A stretch of DNA of 64,000 bases from assembly GCA_026396175.1 (NCBI GenBank), contig JAPLXG010000013.1, positions 65,267 through 129,266 of the forward strand. The letters are read 5' to 3'. A program made the position numbers and the translations under genes. Shown here one piece after another: positions 23,602 through 30,987 of this stretch (position 1 is its first letter; each line of letters begins with the position of its first letter). The stretch is from Candidatus Moraniibacteriota bacterium. Lineage in GTDB: Bacteria > Patescibacteriota > Minisyncoccia > Moranbacterales > UBA2206. Under the pieces are notes generated by a model. It saw only the letters and a program-made list of their open reading frames with translations, was not told the DNA's origin and made no database searches.

Positions 23602-23772
23602 TTATTTTTTGAAAGTTATTTTTTAGTCTACAATGTGTTATGTGATGTCATTTTTTTATTCCTTATTGTAATTTTCTCAATCCGCTTTTTTATTCAAATT
23701 GTAAATAAGTTTTTTTGATTTTGGTTTTGGGCAGAGGGGTAGGGGTGAATGCCCAAAATCAAAAACTCCTTG

Positions 23773-24390
23773 CTACTTCTTTTTTAAAATAATTTTTCCT
23801 CTCGTTTTTCTATTCTCATCGTTTCCGTAAAAGCCACTAATCTCTTTTGGCTTACACTCTTCAAAATTAAGAATGGCAAAGCCACAATGTCCCACAAAAC
23901 CAGTATTTGCTAGGTCTGTTTCTGTCGGGTTATTTGTATATTTATAACCCAAAATCCATTCTTCTTTATTGTTTTGATTTTTTTCAAAATAATTAGAGGA
24001 GCTTTTAAATTTTGATTGATCAAAATTGCCAGAGTATATAAAACCGCCATCTGTCTTTTTGATTTCTATTTTGCCGATTCCTTTGGTATTGTATTGTGAA
24101 TTTTCCCAATCATATTTATAAGAACTAGAATATTCCATTTCCCATTTTCCCGTGATGTCTGGATATTCTTGAAATCCAATGAATATAAATATTTTTTTGA
24201 TTAACCAATGCTTATTCCATAAATATTTTTCGTAAATAAAATTTAGAAAATAAAGAATCAAAAAAATTATAGCCGAGACGATGCTGTATTTCCAGAAATT
24301 TAGCCTGGGAAATCTATTGCTTACTGCATAAAATGCAAAAGTCAATAATACAGATATCGAAACAATTTTTTTCAAATCTAATTTTGTCAT
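23773..24390 (-). CDS. 2TM membrane protein with beta-rich C-terminal domain; candidate effector (Cap15-like/SLATT-like) of the adjacent NTase
   Basis: Start MTKLDLKK at 24390 overlaps the upstream stop (ATGA). Two TM helices (IVSISVLLTFAFYAV, IVSAIIFLILYFLNFI) are followed by a soluble Gly/Tyr/Lys-rich domain of about 125 aa. The region is AT-rich. Confidence 0.55.
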   Translation of the reverse strand: MTKLDLKKIVSISVLLTFAFYAVSNRFPRLNFWKYSIVSAIIFLILYFLNFIYEKYLWNKHWLIKKIFIFIGFQEYPDITGKWEMEYSSSYKYDWENSQYNTKGIGKIEIKKTDGGFIYSGNFDQSKFKSSSNYFEKNQNNKEEWILGYKYTNNPTETDLANTGFVGHCGFAILNFEECKPKEISGFYGNDENRKTRGKIILKKK

Positions 24391-25319
24391 AGCTTTTCTA
24401 AAATAAGACCGGCACTTTTTGAGATAAATATTTTTGCATTGTCTAACCCCCATCCATTTTTAGATAAAAACAGTAAGTCTTGACCATTGGCACATTTATA
24501 ATACTGCAATGATCCATTTTCTGAATCGTTAAGTGTATTTTGCAATACATTAATCACGATGCTTTGATAGCTTCCGTTAAATACGGGAGCAGGACAATTA
24601 TAAATCAGATTTTCAATGAAATATGACGGAGCAAGCTTTGCATCCATTTCATTTTTTTCATTTAGTTTTTTTCTGATATTTTTAAAAATTCTTATTGAAT
24701 CTTTAAATTTACCCTCCGTATCGCGATTGAGAGCTTCACAATTTTTTTTATGTTCTTTTGGATAATTTATAATTAAATCATTTGTTTCTGTGTTGTAAAA
24801 TTTTATGCCAGCTACATATTGATCAGTCGTATAAAAAGTAAAACGCCCATACTTTCTGTGATGAAAGGCAGGAATTACATCAGCATTTACGCGTAAAGTA
24901 TTTTTAGGTATTTTTATGCTTTTTCCCCCATACTCAATGGTCGTTCCCGAAAAATATTTTTGCAAAGAAGCATAAACATCTTTTTTGAATTGAGCGAATT
25001 GATATGCGCTTTTATTTGAGTAAAATGAGTGAAAATCTTTCTTTTCTTCTTCTGTTAATTGGTTTATATCATACGAAAATACAGAATTTAATTCAATCAC
25101 CACATCAACATCGCTATCTTCGGTAATATTTGTGCTATTTGCATATGATCCTTGCAGATAAATTTCATAGTTTTCTGCCTTAATTTCATATCCATGATTA
25201 TTTTTTGCAAATTCCGATAAATAAGCCGCCAAAGCTTTTCTAATTTCTTCGTGGGTGTATTTATATTTTGTTGCAGTTGGCGATGAAGCCCATGATTGTA
25301 GTTGTTGCTCCGATATCAT
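24387..25319 (-). CDS. minimal Pol-beta-superfamily nucleotidyltransferase, SMODS/CD-NTase-like
   Basis: 310 aa. GS-x11-DVDVV (LQGSYANSTNITEDSDVDVVIE) is followed by a third acidic strand (VNADVIPAF). The start overlaps the vsr stop (ATGA). The pairing with a downstream 2TM protein fits CBASS-like modules. Confidence 0.6.
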   Translation of the reverse strand: MISEQQLQSWASSPTATKYKYTHEEIRKALAAYLSEFAKNNHGYEIKAENYEIYLQGSYANSTNITEDSDVDVVIELNSVFSYDINQLTEEEKKDFHSFYSNKSAYQFAQFKKDVYASLQKYFSGTTIEYGGKSIKIPKNTLRVNADVIPAFHHRKYGRFTFYTTDQYVAGIKFYNTETNDLIINYPKEHKKNCEALNRDTEGKFKDSIRIFKNIRKKLNEKNEMDAKLAPSYFIENLIYNCPAPVFNGSYQSIVINVLQNTLNDSENGSLQYYKCANGQDLLFLSKNGWGLDNAKIFISKSAGLILEKL

Positions 25320-25726
25320 ATAGCTCCTTTTATAAATAAACTTAATTTTTCAGCACTTTTGTCAATCCTTTTAAGATCATGCTCCCAAATTCTAAAAATT
25401 TTCCAACCTAATTTTTTATATTGTCTATTAACCTCCTTGTCTCGTTCTTTGTTCCTGTCGATTTTTGTTTCCCAAAATTTTTTTCGAGTTTGAGGCATTG
25501 AACCATGCTTTTTGCATCCGTGCCAAAAACAAGAATCTATAAAAATAACGGTTTTGTGTTTGGGCAAAACAATATCAGGCTTCCCGAAATATTTTGTCGA
25601 ATTTTTACGATAACGAAACCCCGCTTTCCATAATTTTTTCCGAAATTCAATTTCTATCTTACTGTCCTTGCTTCGAACTTTTGACATAATCTCACTGCGT
25701 TTCTTTTTGGAAAAAATATCAGTCAT
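25316..25726 (-). CDS. vsr: very short patch repair endonuclease
   Basis: 136 aa. RSEIMSKVRSKDSKIEI, GKPDIVLPKHKTVIFIDSCFWHGC and WE.K match the Vsr family. Confidence 0.85.
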   Translation of the reverse strand: MTDIFSKKKRSEIMSKVRSKDSKIEIEFRKKLWKAGFRYRKNSTKYFGKPDIVLPKHKTVIFIDSCFWHGCKKHGSMPQTRKKFWETKIDRNKERDKEVNRQYKKLGWKIFRIWEHDLKRIDKSAEKLSLFIKGAI

Positions 25727-25734
25727 GACTGTTT

Positions 25735-26823
25735 TTATTTCAGAAATCTGATTTGTAAATTCAACTTGAAAAACAACTTGCCGTTTTCTTCATACAATTC
25801 ACCATAGCCATATCTGGTCGTGCTTGGTGCGTCAAATTTGGTGTTTTCATACAAATAAGAACGAAATTCATCTCGATTATACAAATGGTAGCATACCACA
25901 TCTCCATTTTCTTTTACCACAATATAGCCTCCTTGCGCTTTCGAAAAACCATCCCATGGTTTGCTGGGCACCATGCCGAGCGCAATCGCATCTAAAAAGT
26001 TTTTTATTTTGTATTCGTAATTCGTGAGCGATAATCCGAATTTTTGTTTCATATCCTCATTTTTGGAAAGCTCTTTTGTTAAATCAGCAACGGTTCTGTG
26101 TGTATTCGAGAAAAAATCCAAAAGCATTTGAGCGATAAATTCCGGCAATGCAGTATCAATCATTTTCATATTGAATTCGAATTGTTCATTTGAAACTCCA
26201 GCATATCTGAAAACCCCGCCCTGTTCCGTGATTTTGCTTACACGATCACGAATTTGCGCATTTGTTTGAATCGCATTAACTTTTGAAAGGTCTCCACTGA
26301 ATTCACTGATTTCATAAATGAAATTTGTTGTTTGTCCCGGGTTTAACAACGTAGAAGCTCCGCCAACCATAGACTTGATGGAAAAACCGAGCATCGGCAT
26401 TGTTTTTGAAATTGTGTCATAAATAATTGCCACCAAATCAGCTTTCTTTGCATTGCTGGCTTTAACTTTTGTGCAAAGCAATTCTTTCATTAATTCTTGC
26501 GCTTCGGGAATATTAAAAGAACGACTTCTTTCGTTTTTTATTTTTTCAAATATTTTCAAAGTTTTTTCCTTGAGTGAGTCATTGTTAAATTCTTTTAACA
26601 ATACGCCTTCCTCGTTGGTTATTAAAACCTTGGTTGCCGACTCAGAAATGTCATAAATTTTAGTTGATTCATCTTTTTCTTCTCTGATAATTTTATGAAA
26701 AACAAAAAACTTACCGTCAATTATTTCAAGATTTTTATCGGCAGCAAAAATCTTTCTTTCCTCTAAAATTTTTAGAAAAGCGTAAAATTCCGACCATTCT
26801 CCTTTGTTATTTCCTGTTTCCAT
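25735..26823 (-). CDS. putative type II restriction endonuclease (HpaII-like size and context)
   Basis: 362 aa with no recognisable motif. It sits between the C5 methyltransferase and vsr, overlapping the methyltransferase gene by 17 nt. The M-R-V arrangement mirrors known HpaII-type cassettes. The call rests on context. Confidence 0.4.
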   Translation of the reverse strand: METGNNKGEWSEFYAFLKILEERKIFAADKNLEIIDGKFFVFHKIIREEKDESTKIYDISESATKVLITNEEGVLLKEFNNDSLKEKTLKIFEKIKNERSRSFNIPEAQELMKELLCTKVKASNAKKADLVAIIYDTISKTMPMLGFSIKSMVGGASTLLNPGQTTNFIYEISEFSGDLSKVNAIQTNAQIRDRVSKITEQGGVFRYAGVSNEQFEFNMKMIDTALPEFIAQMLLDFFSNTHRTVADLTKELSKNEDMKQKFGLSLTNYEYKIKNFLDAIALGMVPSKPWDGFSKAQGGYIVVKENGDVVCYHLYNRDEFRSYLYENTKFDAPSTTRYGYGELYEENGKLFFKLNLQIRFLK

Positions 26824-28486
26824 ATTTTTTTAAAGTTTTAACTATTTCTTCAGCCACCGCTTGAATTGCCGGAACGGCAACTGAATTTCCAAGTTGCTTC
26901 ATGGCCTGAACCGATGAAAAATTTGGTGGAAATTCGTACCAATCGGGAAAACCTTGCATTTTTAATCCCTCTTTCGGTCCAAGCTGAACAATCTTTCCAT
27001 TAACTCTGTAAGCGTCCCAATTTCTGCGATCGGTTATTTTGCTTCCGCGCCCACCGACACGCAATGTAAATCCTATTTCCTTGTCGCATTTTCCATTGAA
27101 AATATCTGACAAGGTATATTTCAATTCCTTGATTGGTTCGGGAAATTTAAAATCTATCGAAGTATCCTTAAAACCAACCATGAAAAGACGAGGACGGTGT
27201 TGAGGTAATCCAAAATCAGAGGCTCTGACAATTTGCGGAAAGAAAGAATATCCCAATTCTTTCGTAATAACCCTTTCTATGGTTTTAAATGTTTTTCCAT
27301 CGTCATGACTTAATAGGCCACGCACATTTTCCAGAAAAAATGCCTTTGGCTTTTTTTCTTTAATTATTTTTACAATATCAAAAAACAAAGTTCCACGAGT
27401 TTCGCTAAATCCTTTTTTGAATCCGGCTTGAGAAAATGGCTGACAAGGAAATCCCGCTGTCAAAATATCAAAATCCGGGATATCTTTTGTTTTAATTTTT
27501 GTAATATCGCCAATGAAATTTCCAGAATCAAACATTTCAGGAGAAATTTTATAAAGATTGTGTCTGTATGTTTTTTGAGCGGGTCCGTCCCATTCTGATA
27601 CGAAGACACATTCCGCTCCTGCATTATGAAATGCAATATGGAAACCGCCAATACCTGCGAATAAATCTATAAATCGCAAATTGTCACTCTTCTTTTTGTT
27701 TTTTGCCATTGAGTTATTATAAAAATATAATTGATTTGCATCTACCAGCAAATCAAACAGGGAGGCTTGCGAGCCTTCCGCCACATATTCCGTGTTTGTT
27801 AATTCCACATTCTTCAAGTCACCAAGTATGCTATGCACCCCGTTTTTTGCAACAATTAAAAAATCGATAACATTTACGCCCATTAATTGCCCGGCTTCAA
27901 TTATCCTTTTTGCGACCTGCTTGTCCTGCTCACTTGGTTTCGGATCACCTGATGGGTGATTGTGAATAAGAATTACACCCGCTGCGTGCATTTCCAATCC
28001 GGGGGCAAAAATTTCTCGCGGGTGAATAATGCTTTTGTCCAATGTTCCGATTGAAATGGTTTCTTTTTTTATCAGAGCGTTACGTGCGTTCAAATAAAGA
28101 CAAATGAGATGTTCTTGTTTCTTGTCTTTTAAGTCCAAAACAAGATTAATGGCGTCTTGTGCTGACAAAATTAAATTATCCAAAGAATTTTGTTTGTTAA
28201 AAATTCTTCCGGTTAATGCGAGTGCTGATGAAATCTGCAACGCCTTCGCTTGTCCTATTCCTGAAATTTTCATTAAATCAGCAACTGAAACATTTAATAA
28301 ATTATCTCCAAATTTTTTGATAATCTTTTGTGATAATACTTTTACATTAGTGCCTTTAATCCCACTGCCAAGCAAAATAGCCAAAAGCTCGCTATCAGTT
28401 AAAGCATCCGGTCCTTTTTCCAGAAATTTTTCTCTGGGGCGATCAAATTTTGGTATATCTTTAATTTTAGGCATATTTGATGACAT
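26807..28486 (-). CDS. RadC-like JAB/MPN domain fused to DNA cytosine-5 methyltransferase (Dcm)
   Basis: N-terminal part of about 230 aa: HhH region (LMKISGIGQAKA), then JAMM motif HNHPSGDPKPSEQD. C-terminal part of about 320 aa: motif I FIDLFAGIGGF, motif IV GFPCQPFSQAG, motif VI ENV, and C-terminal motifs. The reading frame is continuous. Confidence 0.75.
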   Translation of the reverse strand: MSSNMPKIKDIPKFDRPREKFLEKGPDALTDSELLAILLGSGIKGTNVKVLSQKIIKKFGDNLLNVSVADLMKISGIGQAKALQISSALALTGRIFNKQNSLDNLILSAQDAINLVLDLKDKKQEHLICLYLNARNALIKKETISIGTLDKSIIHPREIFAPGLEMHAAGVILIHNHPSGDPKPSEQDKQVAKRIIEAGQLMGVNVIDFLIVAKNGVHSILGDLKNVELTNTEYVAEGSQASLFDLLVDANQLYFYNNSMAKNKKKSDNLRFIDLFAGIGGFHIAFHNAGAECVFVSEWDGPAQKTYRHNLYKISPEMFDSGNFIGDITKIKTKDIPDFDILTAGFPCQPFSQAGFKKGFSETRGTLFFDIVKIIKEKKPKAFFLENVRGLLSHDDGKTFKTIERVITKELGYSFFPQIVRASDFGLPQHRPRLFMVGFKDTSIDFKFPEPIKELKYTLSDIFNGKCDKEIGFTLRVGGRGSKITDRRNWDAYRVNGKIVQLGPKEGLKMQGFPDWYEFPPNFSSVQAMKQLGNSVAVPAIQAVAEEIVKTLKKYGNRK

Positions 28487-28725
28487 AAAACTTAACTGCC
28501 TGTATTATACCTTAAATAAATATAAAATAAAAATCGCTTTTTCTGCGCCTTTCAATAGCAGAAAAACACCCTAAACCACTCATAAAAGATAAAAAAACTT
28601 ATTTTTCCTTATTATAAAAAAGCGGATTGATAAAAAATATAAAAAGTAAAAAAAATATTTATCCGCAGTTCTATTATGGCACATTATTTTTTTGTGGTAA
28701 ATAAACAATCTAAAAACTCCCCTCT

Positions 28726-30908: not shown

Positions 30909-30915
30909 CTTGTGG

Positions 30916-30987
30916 TAGCCCCAAGGAGAGTCGGACTCCTCTTTCCAGGATGAGAACCTGACGTCCTAACCGATAGACGATGGGGCC
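30916..30987 (-). tRNA. tRNA-Glu (anticodon CTC) with non-canonical T-loop
   Basis: The minus-strand sequence ggccccatcgtctatcggttaggacgtcaggttctcatcctggaaagaggagtccgactctccttggggcta folds as a cloverleaf (7-bp acceptor, D-loop with GG, anticodon loop ttctcat, T-stem aggag/ctcct). The T-loop reads tccgact instead of TTCRANY. Confidence 0.5.

What the first reader, a model, noticed from the sequence alone, without database searches (positions are those of the whole stretch)
25735..26823. Putative restriction endonuclease of an M-R-V (HpaII-like) cassette with unknown specificity
This 362-aa protein shows no motif I can recognise by eye. It is sandwiched between the m5C MTase and vsr in a translationally coupled arrangement, matching the gene order of HpaII-type systems (MTase, REase, Vsr) and their typical REase size. 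If this is correct, the lineage has an active type II RM system whose recognition site could be inferred from the methylase.
Basis: inference. Interest (0 to 1): 0.55.

Follow-up and report, generated by a model that had tools for sequence, protein, structure and literature searches.

The report
HpaII-family restriction enzyme, already annotated
The 362-aa gene is an intact, ordinary member of the HpaII restriction-endonuclease family and is already labelled as such in GenBank. Its neighbourhood is less ordinary: the partner methylase is fused to RadC, and the whole block looks like a mobile defence cassette.

Summary
The ORF at 25735-26823 (minus strand, 362 aa) is real. It matches Pfam RE_HpaII (PF09561) end to end (E 9.6e-110). 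It keeps every residue that is invariant in an alignment of 100 family members, and it is under strong purifying selection (dN/dS 0.03-0.08). The identical protein is public as MCX6762023.1, [quoted passage not shown].

It is 41% identical over its full length to the Algibacter HpaII enzyme, whose partner methylase was shown to modify CCGG. CCGG is therefore the most likely target, but this is untested.

- **Fused methylase.** The methylase is a single ORF fused behind a full RadC protein. The fusion is conserved in at least 117 database clusters, and GenBank names it only "RadC".
- **Short recognition domain.** The methylase's target-recognition domain is far shorter than that of canonical M.HpaII. 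Reading the site from the methylase is therefore not straightforward.
- **Cassette structure.** RM plus Vsr plus a CBASS pair form a 4.9-kb low-GC block bounded by conserved elements. In related contigs these elements bracket other defence cassettes in integron-like arrays with attC-like sites and a XerA/IntI-like recombinase.

The parts
25735..26823 (-). Restriction endonuclease, HpaII family (362 aa). Candidate catalytic residues are E12, D129 and S148-x-K150.
   Evidence: PF09561 E 9.6e-110, profile 1-359/359. PADLOC REase_II E 3.2e-91. Identical to MCX6762023.1. All family-invariant residues present. dN/dS 0.03-0.08. AF2 pLDDT 95.2.
26807..28486 (-). One ORF of 559 aa: RadC (HhH N-domain plus JAB domain, aa 8-220), a conserved linker (aa ~221-250), and a C5 DNA methylase (aa ~260-559) with a short TRD. 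GenBank starts it at M5 (28474).
   Evidence: PF20582, PF04002 and PF00145 on one protein. NF000642 RadC 220 bits, cut-off 180; TIGR00675 dcm 273.6 bits. No stop between the domains here or in 11 distinct related loci. At least 117 database clusters carry PF04002 plus PF00145. All three parts have dN/dS 0.02-0.05.
26807..27709 (-). Methylase portion of the fusion, counted from the internal ATG (M260) to the stop. Motifs I, IV, VI, VIII and X are present; the TRD is about 30 aa.
   Evidence: Alignment with M.HhaI and with the Algibacter and katablepharid HpaII methylases.
25316..25726 (-). Vsr very-short-patch repair endonuclease (136 aa).
   Evidence: PF03852 E 1.1e-29; TIGR00632 131.8 bits, cut-off 97.85. 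Identical to MCX6762022.1.
24387..25319 (-). CBASS-type oligonucleotide cyclase (CD-NTase, 310 aa). Its ATG overlaps the vsr stop.
   Evidence: PADLOC Cyclase E 1.6e-88. NCBIfam DS2_2_antiphage 262.8 bits, below its cut-off of 350; SMODS weak.
23773..24453 (-). 2TM / Cap15-like CBASS effector (226 aa as listed; the true start is probably further downstream).
   Evidence: PF18153 Cap15_CD_rec E 9.1e-11. PADLOC 2TM Effector E 7.3e-21.
28513..28660 (-). Conserved 5' cassette element ('elemR'). It holds one arm of the inverted repeat (28591-28655) and a TATAAT (28504-28509) just downstream of the element, 18 nt before the ATG.
   Evidence: 77-89% identical copies lie in front of other defence cassettes in L015, L027, L028 and L029.
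23635..23771 (-). Conserved 3' cassette element ('elemL'). It holds a hairpin, the other inverted-repeat arm (23652-23716), and ends in ACATAAC.
   Evidence: 80-99% identical copies follow the last gene of cassettes in L015, L027, L028 and L029. Inverted-repeat score 25 against 9.8 +/- 1.3 in shuffles, 0 of 300 reaching it.

Best explanation
The gene encodes a functional Type II restriction endonuclease of the HpaII family. It is co-transcribed and translationally coupled with its protective m5C methylase (upstream, fused to RadC) and followed by a Vsr endonuclease.

Inferred mechanism:
- The methylase methylates a cytosine in the target, most likely CCGG, on host DNA.
- The REase cuts unmethylated targets on incoming DNA using a Mg2+-dependent PD-(D/E)XK-type site. 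The candidates are D129 and S148-x-K150, with E12 on the first helix. By analogy with HpaII it probably leaves a 2-nt 5' overhang and may need two sites.
- Vsr nicks the T:G mismatches that arise when 5-methylcytosine deaminates, limiting the mutational cost of the methylase.
- Because the REase ATG lies inside the end of the methylase ORF, the methylase is made first.

The operon, together with a CBASS pair, forms one mobile-type defence cassette.

Shown here: family membership, intactness, purifying selection, gene order, conservation of the fusion, and cassette boundaries. Inferred: CCGG specificity, catalytic residues, cleavage geometry, activity in vivo, and any role for RadC.
For: - **Family membership.** PF09561 matches full length at E 9.6e-110. 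More than 6,500 homologues were found, and 1,968 family representatives at 50% clustering. The identical protein is annotated as HpaII family REase.
- **Link to a tested system.** The protein is 41% identical, without large gaps, to Algibacter HpaII. That enzyme was toxic in E. coli, and its partner methylase was shown by bisulfite sequencing to methylate CCGG (PMC8099122).
- **Intactness.** All 11 invariant and 35 near-invariant family positions are kept. The AF2 model has pLDDT 95.2.
- **Fold.** HpaII/PF09561 was assigned to PD-(D/E)XK by Steczkiewicz et al. 2012 (PMC3424549).
- **Selection.** dN/dS is 0.03-0.08 for R and 0.02-0.05 for RadC, linker and M.
- **Gene neighbourhood.** A methylase lies directly upstream of R in 24 of 26 related loci. 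R is present in every locus that has the RadC~M fusion, whereas Vsr is sometimes missing.
- **Methylase and Vsr.** The methylase motifs are intact and Vsr scores above its curated cut-off.
- **Two-site behaviour.** HpaII itself loops DNA (PMC1474071).
Against: - No biochemical data exist for this protein or for any close relative.
- CCGG is not depleted in the window (243 observed, 225 expected) or in about 95 kb of flanks of related cassettes (O/E 0.89).
- The methylase TRD is much shorter than that of the validated CCGG methylases, so identical specificity is not guaranteed.
- Foldseek finds no significant solved structure. The best REase hits are HinP1I and MspI at E 0.37-0.79, so the catalytic-site assignment rests on motif pattern and literature.
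- No Shine-Dalgarno sequence precedes the REase ATG.
Confidence: 0.85

Rival explanations
1. It is an HpaII-family REase, but with a specificity other than plain CCGG, for example a longer or degenerate site containing CG. In this reading it co-evolved with the unusual short-TRD methylase.
For: The cognate methylase lacks roughly 45-65 residues of the TRD found in the validated CCGG methylases. It retains only a 'TL...GGRG...DRRNWD' core. There is no CCGG avoidance in the window or in related flanks. Identity to the nearest enzyme from a tested system is only 41%.
Against: Many polar residues are invariant across the whole family, in members paired with long-TRD and with short-TRD methylases alike. 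This argues for one recognition mode. I know of no characterised PF09561 member with another specificity; this rests on my own knowledge and was not checked against REBASE. HpaII is blocked by methylation of either cytosine (PMC12907096), so a different methylase architecture can still protect CCGG.
Confidence: 0.12
2. The REase is a silenced or decaying passenger, and the locus works mainly as a methylase plus Vsr (epigenetic or selfish remnant), not as an active restriction barrier.
For: One relative (L023) keeps only an REase fragment (aa 95-203) next to vsr. L020 and L025 have frame-shifted REase hits. The window copy of the cassette has lost its attC-like site. There is no CCGG avoidance.
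Against: The ORF here is full length, has every invariant residue, and has dN/dS 0.03-0.08 against four relatives. The start codon is embedded in the methylase ORF, as in relatives.
Confidence: 0.03

Closest known systems
HpaII restriction-modification system of Haemophilus parainfluenzae (R.HpaII / M.HpaII, CCGG), the founder of Pfam PF09561
   Same: Same REase family, with a full-length profile match. Similar size of about 360 aa. A C5 methylase gene sits directly upstream on the same strand. There is an association with a vsr gene; for HpaII itself I recall this from Kulakauskas et al. 1994 and did not verify it here.
   Different: Here the methylase is fused to a complete RadC and has a much shorter TRD. 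Vsr is downstream of R. The host is a Candidate Phyla Radiation bacterium (Moranbacteria). I could not compare directly with the HpaII sequences because they were not available in the tools.
Algibacter and katablepharid-mitochondrial HpaII RM systems (PMC8099122)
   Same: The REase is 41% identical over its full length to Algibacter HpaII. The methylase catalytic core is about 40% identical overall. Both have tandem M-R organisation.
   Different: Those methylases have the long, canonical HpaII-type TRD and unrelated N-terminal extensions. They have no RadC and no Vsr. They were tested experimentally (methylation of the inner C of CCGG; toxicity), whereas this system was not.
HinP1I and MspI, monomeric PD-(D/E)XK REases that leave 2-nt 5' overhangs
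   Same: They are the only restriction enzymes among the top Foldseek hits to the AF2 model (ranks 3, 4 and 8). They have the same type of D...(Q/N/S)xK catalytic motif. MspI also recognises CCGG.
   Different: The hits are not significant (E 0.37-0.79, TM 0.22-0.32). No sequence or profile similarity was found. They belong to different Pfam families.
Integron gene cassettes that carry phage-defence systems (bioRxiv 10.1101/2024.07.02.601719; PMC12614218)
   Same: In relatives (L015, L027, L029) the same RM operon sits in same-orientation cassette arrays. The cassettes are separated by structured attC-like sites (R''/L''...L'/R') in which conservation stops right after GTT. A divergent XerA/IntI-like tyrosine recombinase lies next to the array.
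   Different: - The cassettes are large (2.8-6.5 kb, multi-gene).
- Each has its own conserved promoter-bearing 5' element and a 3' element.
- The recombinase is below the curated integron-integrase cut-off (220-231 bits against 265) and matches that model in two stretches.
- The window copy has neither an attC-like core nor a recombinase.
RadC domain fusions catalogued by Iyer et al. 2011 (PMC3239186): RadC-ArdC, RadC-DnaG and RadC-DinG
   Same: A RadC JAB domain, here with its HhH N-domain, is fused to a DNA-acting enzyme in a conflict or mobile-element context.
   Different: Here the fusion partner is a C5 DNA methylase of an RM system, which that survey does not list. No description of it turned up in my single literature search on the point.

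Membership tests
HpaII restriction endonuclease family (Pfam PF09561) | Full-length match to the family profile above the curated threshold | tested here: met
   367.7 bits against a cut-off of 25, E 9.6e-110, residues 6-360 on profile 1-359/359.
HpaII restriction endonuclease family (Pfam PF09561) | Conservation of the family's invariant residues (putative active site D...SxK and others) | tested here: met
   N6, G8, E12, D129, K150, L159, N161, G283, W290, L324 and R359 are invariant in 100 diverse members and present here. S148 and S151 are near-invariant.
HpaII restriction endonuclease family (Pfam PF09561) | Adjacent cognate C5 cytosine methylase | tested here: met
   A PF00145 domain lies in the ORF immediately upstream and overlaps it by 17 nt. 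The same arrangement is seen in 24 of 26 related loci.
HpaII restriction endonuclease family (Pfam PF09561) | Recognition of CCGG, cleavage C^CGG, blocked by cytosine methylation | not testable with these tools
   Only indirect evidence: 41% identity to Algibacter HpaII. CCGG avoidance is absent.
PD-(D/E)XK nuclease superfamily | alpha-beta-beta-beta-alpha-beta core with acidic residues and a lysine at the canonical positions | tested here: inconclusive
M.HpaII-type C5 DNA methylase | Conserved C5 methylase motifs (I FxGxG, IV PCQ, VI ENV, VIII QxRxR, X GNSV) | tested here: met
   DLFAGIGGF, GFPCQPFS, LENVRG, QHRPRLF and GNSVAVP are all present. TIGR00675 scores 273.6 bits against a cut-off of 100.65.
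M.HpaII-type C5 DNA methylase | HpaII-type target-recognition domain (about 100 aa between motifs VIII and IX) | tested here: not met
   A 36-column gap plus smaller gaps relative to the Algibacter and katablepharid HpaII methylases. Only about 30 aa occupy the region where M.HhaI has about 70.
Vsr very-short-patch repair endonuclease | Match to TIGR00632 / PF03852 above cut-off | tested here: met
   131.8 bits against 97.85; PF03852 102.5 bits against 27.
RadC (UPF0758) family | N-terminal HhH domain plus JAB domain with the HxHx7Sx2D metal motif | tested here: met
   NF000642 equivalog 220.2 bits against 180; PF20582 and PF04002 match. HNHPSGDPKPSEQD is present in the translation.
Integron gene cassette | attC site (R''-L''...L'-R' hairpin) at the 3' end of the cassette | tested here: not met
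   In the window only the R''-like ACATAAC remains after elemL; L'', L' and R' are absent. The feature is met in relatives L015, L027, L028 and L029: six sites, with 9 of 38 pairs carrying compensatory changes.
Integron gene cassette | Integron integrase next to the array | tested here: not met
   No homologue anywhere in the 64-kb window. In L029 and L015 a divergent recombinase passes NF040815 (XerA/integron integrase; 242 and 239 bits against 220) but not TIGR02249 (220 and 231 bits against 265).
CBASS type I (neighbouring genes) | CD-NTase plus 2TM effector pair | tested here: met
   PADLOC Cyclase E 1.6e-88 and 2TM Effector E 7.3e-21. The NCBIfam curated cut-offs were not reached.

The most novel reading that the evidence does not exclude
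The RM operon may be one module of a previously undescribed integron-like platform in Patescibacteria-type genomes. Large, self-promoted defence cassettes would be bounded by conserved 5' and 3' elements and by attC-like hairpin sites, and shuffled by a XerA/IntI-like recombinase. Within that platform, RadC is an obligate, selected N-terminal domain of a minimal-TRD m5C methylase. That would give RadC, whose function has stayed uncertain, a concrete role coupled to DNA methylation and self-protection, for example acting on single-stranded or incoming DNA.
Probability: 0.3. Interest if true: 0.6.

Novelty: new member of a known kind. Interest (0 to 1): 0.25.

Why it matters
The enzyme itself matters little. 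It adds one more uncharacterised HpaII-family REase, and it is already correctly named in GenBank.

The context may matter more:
- **Hidden methylase.** PGAP names the RadC~methylase fusion only "DNA repair protein RadC". RM surveys that rely on product names will therefore miss the methylase and score the REase as an orphan.
- **A clue to RadC.** A conserved, purifying-selected fusion of RadC to an RM methylase is a rare functional clue for RadC.
- **A very small methylase.** The roughly 300-aa methylase with an approximately 30-aa TRD is among the smallest C5 DNA methylases, and could be a useful minimal scaffold if it is active.
- **A cassette platform.** The repeat-bounded cassette arrays suggest how reduced-genome CPR bacteria exchange defence systems.

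Tried and rejected
- **CCGG avoidance as a read-out of specificity.** CCGG is not depleted in the window (O/E 1.08) and only marginally in about 95 kb of related flanks (O/E 0.89). This is uninformative. GGCC, GATC and CATG are the depleted palindromes. A Vsr-type CTGG/CCAG skew is not evident either.
- **Whether the RadC~methylase ORF is an accidental read-through with an independent internal start.** Rejected. Eleven distinct relatives have the same uninterrupted ORF, several have no internal Met, and the linker is conserved at protein level with dN/dS about 0.02.
- **Whether RadC is simply the host's radC with the cassette inserted behind it.** Rejected. The flanks differ between loci while RadC travels with M-R.
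- **The two elements as a plain TIR transposon.** This fits less well than an integron-type cassette, given the attC-like sites and recombinase found in relatives.
- **Rfam.** No match to the elements or the attC-like sites.
- **Viral contigs.** No copy of the attC-like core.
- **Search for an 'empty site'.** The only other contig carrying the flanking exonuclease gene breaks inside elemL. The other flanking protein is not on record.
- **Literature check of the HpaII operon's own gene order.** The Kulakauskas 1994 paper is not in the library.

Full report
**1. The observation**

The ORF at 25735..26823 (minus strand, ATG, 362 aa) is present exactly as described. The ORF upstream on the same strand (26807..28486) contains a C5 cytosine methylase domain. 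The ORF downstream (25316..25726) is a Vsr endonuclease.

The sequence shows how tightly the genes are packed:
- The REase ATG (26821-26823) lies 17 nt inside the end of the methylase ORF.
- The REase stop is 8 nt from the vsr ATG.
- The vsr stop overlaps the ATG of the next gene (ATGA at 25316-25319).

The block from 23.5 to 28.5 kb has 28-39% G+C, against about 42% in the flanks (33.7% against 42.4%).

**2. What the protein is**

Pfam RE_HpaII (PF09561) matches residues 6-360 over the whole 359-position profile, with E 9.6e-110 and 367.7 bits against a cut-off of 25. PADLOC's Type II REase model matches at E 3.2e-91.

More than 6,500 homologues were scored. The closest are 86-98% identical and come from metagenomes. 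Those with names are 'HpaII family restriction endonuclease' from Pacebacteria, Moranbacteria, Magasanikbacteria, Beckwithbacteria and Peribacteria MAGs. An exhaustive HMMER scan found 1,968 cluster representatives at E <= 1e-3.

The exact sequence is public as MCX6762023.1, 'HpaII family restriction endonuclease [Candidatus Moranbacteria bacterium]', on a 144,589-bp contig. Its neighbours there are MCX6762024.1 ('DNA repair protein RadC') and MCX6762022.1 (Vsr).

**3. Is it intact and functional?**

- In an alignment of 100 diverse family members (33-86% identical), 11 columns are invariant: N6, G8, E12, D129, K150, L159, N161, G283, W290, L324 and R359. Another 35 are at least 90% conserved. 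The window protein has all of them.
- AlphaFold2 with this alignment gives a confident model (pLDDT 95.2, pTM 0.91).
- dN/dS against four relatives with usable dS is 0.03-0.08. dS is about 1 or higher, so these values are approximate.
- The methylase has motifs I, IV, VI, VIII and X, and Vsr exceeds its curated threshold.

All of this is consistent with an active system. None of it is a biochemical demonstration.

**4. Fold and catalytic site**

No solved structure is detectable by sequence or by profile. Foldseek of the model against the PDB gave no significant hit. The only restriction enzymes near the top are HinP1I (E 0.37 and 0.51) and MspI (E 0.79), with TM 0.22-0.32.

In the literature, the family was 'unknown superfamily' in 2008. 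R.HpaII was then flagged as a target for crystallography (PMC2441816). It was assigned to PD-(D/E)XK in 2012 (PMC3424549).

The model's secondary structure and the invariant residues fit that assignment. E12 lies on the first helix, D129 at the start of a strand, and S148-I-K150 on the next strand. This is a D...SxK variant. It is an inference, not a test.

**5. Specificity**

The protein is 41% identical over its full length, with only short gaps, to Algibacter HpaII (WP_054724019). In PMC8099122 that enzyme was toxic in E. coli. Its partner methylase was shown by bisulfite sequencing to methylate the second C of CCGG. The conserved polar residues of the family are shared by both proteins. 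I therefore put CCGG at about 0.7.

Two things speak for caution.

First, the cognate methylase is not a canonical M.HpaII. Its catalytic core is closely related to M.HhaI (E 2.7e-65) and to the Algibacter methylase. However, the region between motifs VIII and IX is only about 30 aa, where M.HhaI has about 70, and it lacks a 36-column block present in the validated CCGG methylases.

This short TRD (consensus IGFTLRVGGRGSxIxDRRNWD) is itself strongly conserved. It appears next to HpaII-family REases that are only 30-57% identical to the window protein, in contigs labelled Sulfurimonas, Gracilibacteria, Treponemataceae and Rickettsiales. It is therefore a stable second methylase class paired with this REase family.

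Second, CCGG is not under-represented in the window (243 against 225 expected), and hardly so in flanks of related cassettes (O/E 0.89). That fits recent acquisition but gives no positive support.

**6. The RadC~methylase fusion**

The 559-aa ORF upstream is a complete RadC followed by a linker and the methylase. The RadC part has PF20582 plus PF04002, an NF000642 equivalog score of 220 bits against 180, and an intact metal motif HNHPSGDPKPSEQD.

The same uninterrupted ORF (552-579 aa) occurs in 11 distinct related loci. The linker 'TEYVAEGxQASLFDLLVDANQ' is conserved, and several relatives have no internal Met before motif I, so there the methylase can only be made as a fusion.

RadC, linker and methylase each have dN/dS 0.02-0.05. 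At least 117 of the best 120 database clusters carry PF04002 plus PF00145, at 58-100% identity. Where named, they are called 'DNA repair protein RadC' or 'DNA (cytosine-5)-methyltransferase 1'.

Two close relatives (L007, L012) have the same methylase unfused, as do all the distant ones. Flanking genes differ between loci while RadC stays with M-R, so RadC is part of the mobile module. There is no second RadC in the window.

The survey of RadC fusions by Iyer et al. lists ArdC, DnaG and DinG partners, but not a C5 methylase (PMC3239186). What RadC does here is unknown. A DNA-binding or DNA-processing role coupled to methylation is speculation.

**7. Conservation of the cassette**

A methylase lies directly upstream of the REase in 24 of 26 related loci. 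The REase is present wherever the RadC~M fusion is. Vsr follows in most close relatives, but is absent in L011, L014 and L027 and in all the distant loci. Vsr is the dispensable part.

Decay does occur elsewhere. L023 keeps only an REase fragment next to vsr, and L020 and L025 have frame-shifted hits.

**8. Wider context (beyond the finding)**

After vsr come a CBASS-type cyclase and a 2TM/Cap15-like effector. The five genes are bracketed by a 65-nt imperfect inverted repeat (23652-23716 and 28591-28655). Its exact cores are TCAATCCGCTTTTTTAT and AAATAAGTTTTTTT. It scores 25 against 9.8 +/- 1.3 in shuffles, and the 17-mer occurs nowhere else in the window.

A metagenome scan with the repeat found three contigs. 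Together with L015, they show that the arms belong to two conserved elements. One is about 150 nt and lies 5' of cassettes; a conserved TAnAAT sits just downstream of it, before the first gene. The other is about 137 nt and lies 3' of cassettes.

These elements bracket different defence cassettes:
- RadC~M plus R only, in L027.
- S24 peptidase, C5 methylase, R.HinP1I-family REase and Abi_alpha, in L027.
- N4/N6 methylase plus a MutH-like nuclease, in L028 and L029.
- A Dam-type methylase block, in L029.
- RadC~M-R-V plus an OLD-family ATPase/TOPRIM nuclease, in L015.

In these arrays, each 3' element is followed by a site of about 125 nt: ACATAAC-N2-GGCATATCYGG...CRGATATGCC-N4-5-GTT. Its conservation stops right after GTT. 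Its consensus fold is an R-box, a 12-bp L-box and two inner hairpins. Nine of 38 pairs show compensatory changes between two subtypes.

L029 and L015 carry a divergent tyrosine recombinase. It passes NCBIfam NF040815 ('XerA / integron integrase') but not the integron-integrase model TIGR02249. Four other relatives have a large serine recombinase upstream instead.

This is integron-like, and defence cassettes in integrons are already described (bioRxiv 10.1101/2024.07.02.601719). It also differs from canonical integrons. The cassettes are multi-gene and appear to carry their own promoter. The recombinase is not a canonical IntI. The window's copy has lost the attC-like core and the first ~10 nt of the 5' element, and there is no recombinase within 64 kb. 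The window's copy therefore looks fixed in place.

I followed this only partly. The contigs are short and of uncertain taxonomy.

**9. Verdict**

Interest in the REase itself is low.

Three features could repay experimental work: the RadC-fused methylase with a minimal TRD, its mis-annotation, and the repeat-bounded cassette architecture.

Noticed in passing
window 26807-28486 (-): The methylase is an obligate fusion behind a complete RadC (HhH plus JAB). The fusion is conserved in at least 117 database clusters and is under purifying selection in all three parts. GenBank/PGAP names it only 'DNA repair protein RadC', which hides the methylase.
   Followed up: yes
window 26807-27709 (-), methylase aa ~460-490 of the fusion: The target-recognition domain is only about 30 aa (IGFTLRVGGRGSKITDRRNWD), far shorter than in the validated CCGG methylases or in M.HhaI. 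Yet it is conserved next to HpaII-family REases across distant lineages. The methylase part (about 300 aa) is unusually small.
   Followed up: partly
window 23773-25319 (-): A CBASS type I pair (CD-NTase plus 2TM/Cap15-like effector) follows vsr directly. The vsr stop and the cyclase start overlap (ATGA). None of the 26 related loci has this pair. L015 has an OLD-family ATPase/TOPRIM nuclease in the same slot.
   Followed up: partly
window 23635-23771 and 28513-28660; L015, L027, L028, L029: Conserved 3' and 5' elements with a 65-nt inverted-repeat core bracket the 4.9-kb low-GC block. In other contigs the same elements bracket unrelated RM and defence cassettes arranged in arrays.
   Followed up: partly
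L027:3083-3211, L027:7209-7335, L029:6193-6321, L029:12672-12798, L028:739-868(-), L015:9333-9460: attC-like sites of about 125 nt (ACATAAC...GGCATATCYGG...CRGATATGCC...GTT). They have compensatory base-pair changes, and conservation breaks right after GTT. A XerA/IntI-like tyrosine recombinase lies next to the arrays in L029 (2656-3492) and L015 (2280-3140). This points to integron-like defence-cassette arrays in CPR-type contigs.
   Followed up: partly
L021, L022, L025, L026: In contigs labelled Gracilibacteria, Sulfurimonas and Treponemataceae, the short-TRD methylase and the HpaII-family REase are joined in one reading frame (663-664 aa in L021 and L022). A 717-aa representative (P0269) has the REase domain at residues 362-716. 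These look like single-chain M-R fusions.
   Followed up: no
L006, L009, L011, L012 (upstream of the cassette, opposite strand): A large serine recombinase (about 450-590 aa, 29-51% identical between loci) sits upstream of the M-R cassette in four relatives. One of them (L012) has the methylase unfused.
   Followed up: no
whole window: GGCC (O/E 0.66, z -6.2), GATC (0.72) and CATG (0.67) are the depleted 4-bp palindromes; CCGG is not (1.08). GGCC and GATC are also low in flanks of related cassettes. This hints at long-term exposure to HaeIII-like and MboI/Sau3AI-like systems rather than to this one.
   Followed up: no
L023:1039-1807: Only a fragment of the REase (aa 95-203, 86% identical) remains next to an intact vsr. 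This is an example of REase decay within the same cassette family.
   Followed up: no
window 30913-30987 (-): tRNA-Glu (CTC) lies 2.4 kb upstream of the cassette. No link to the island boundaries was found.
   Followed up: no
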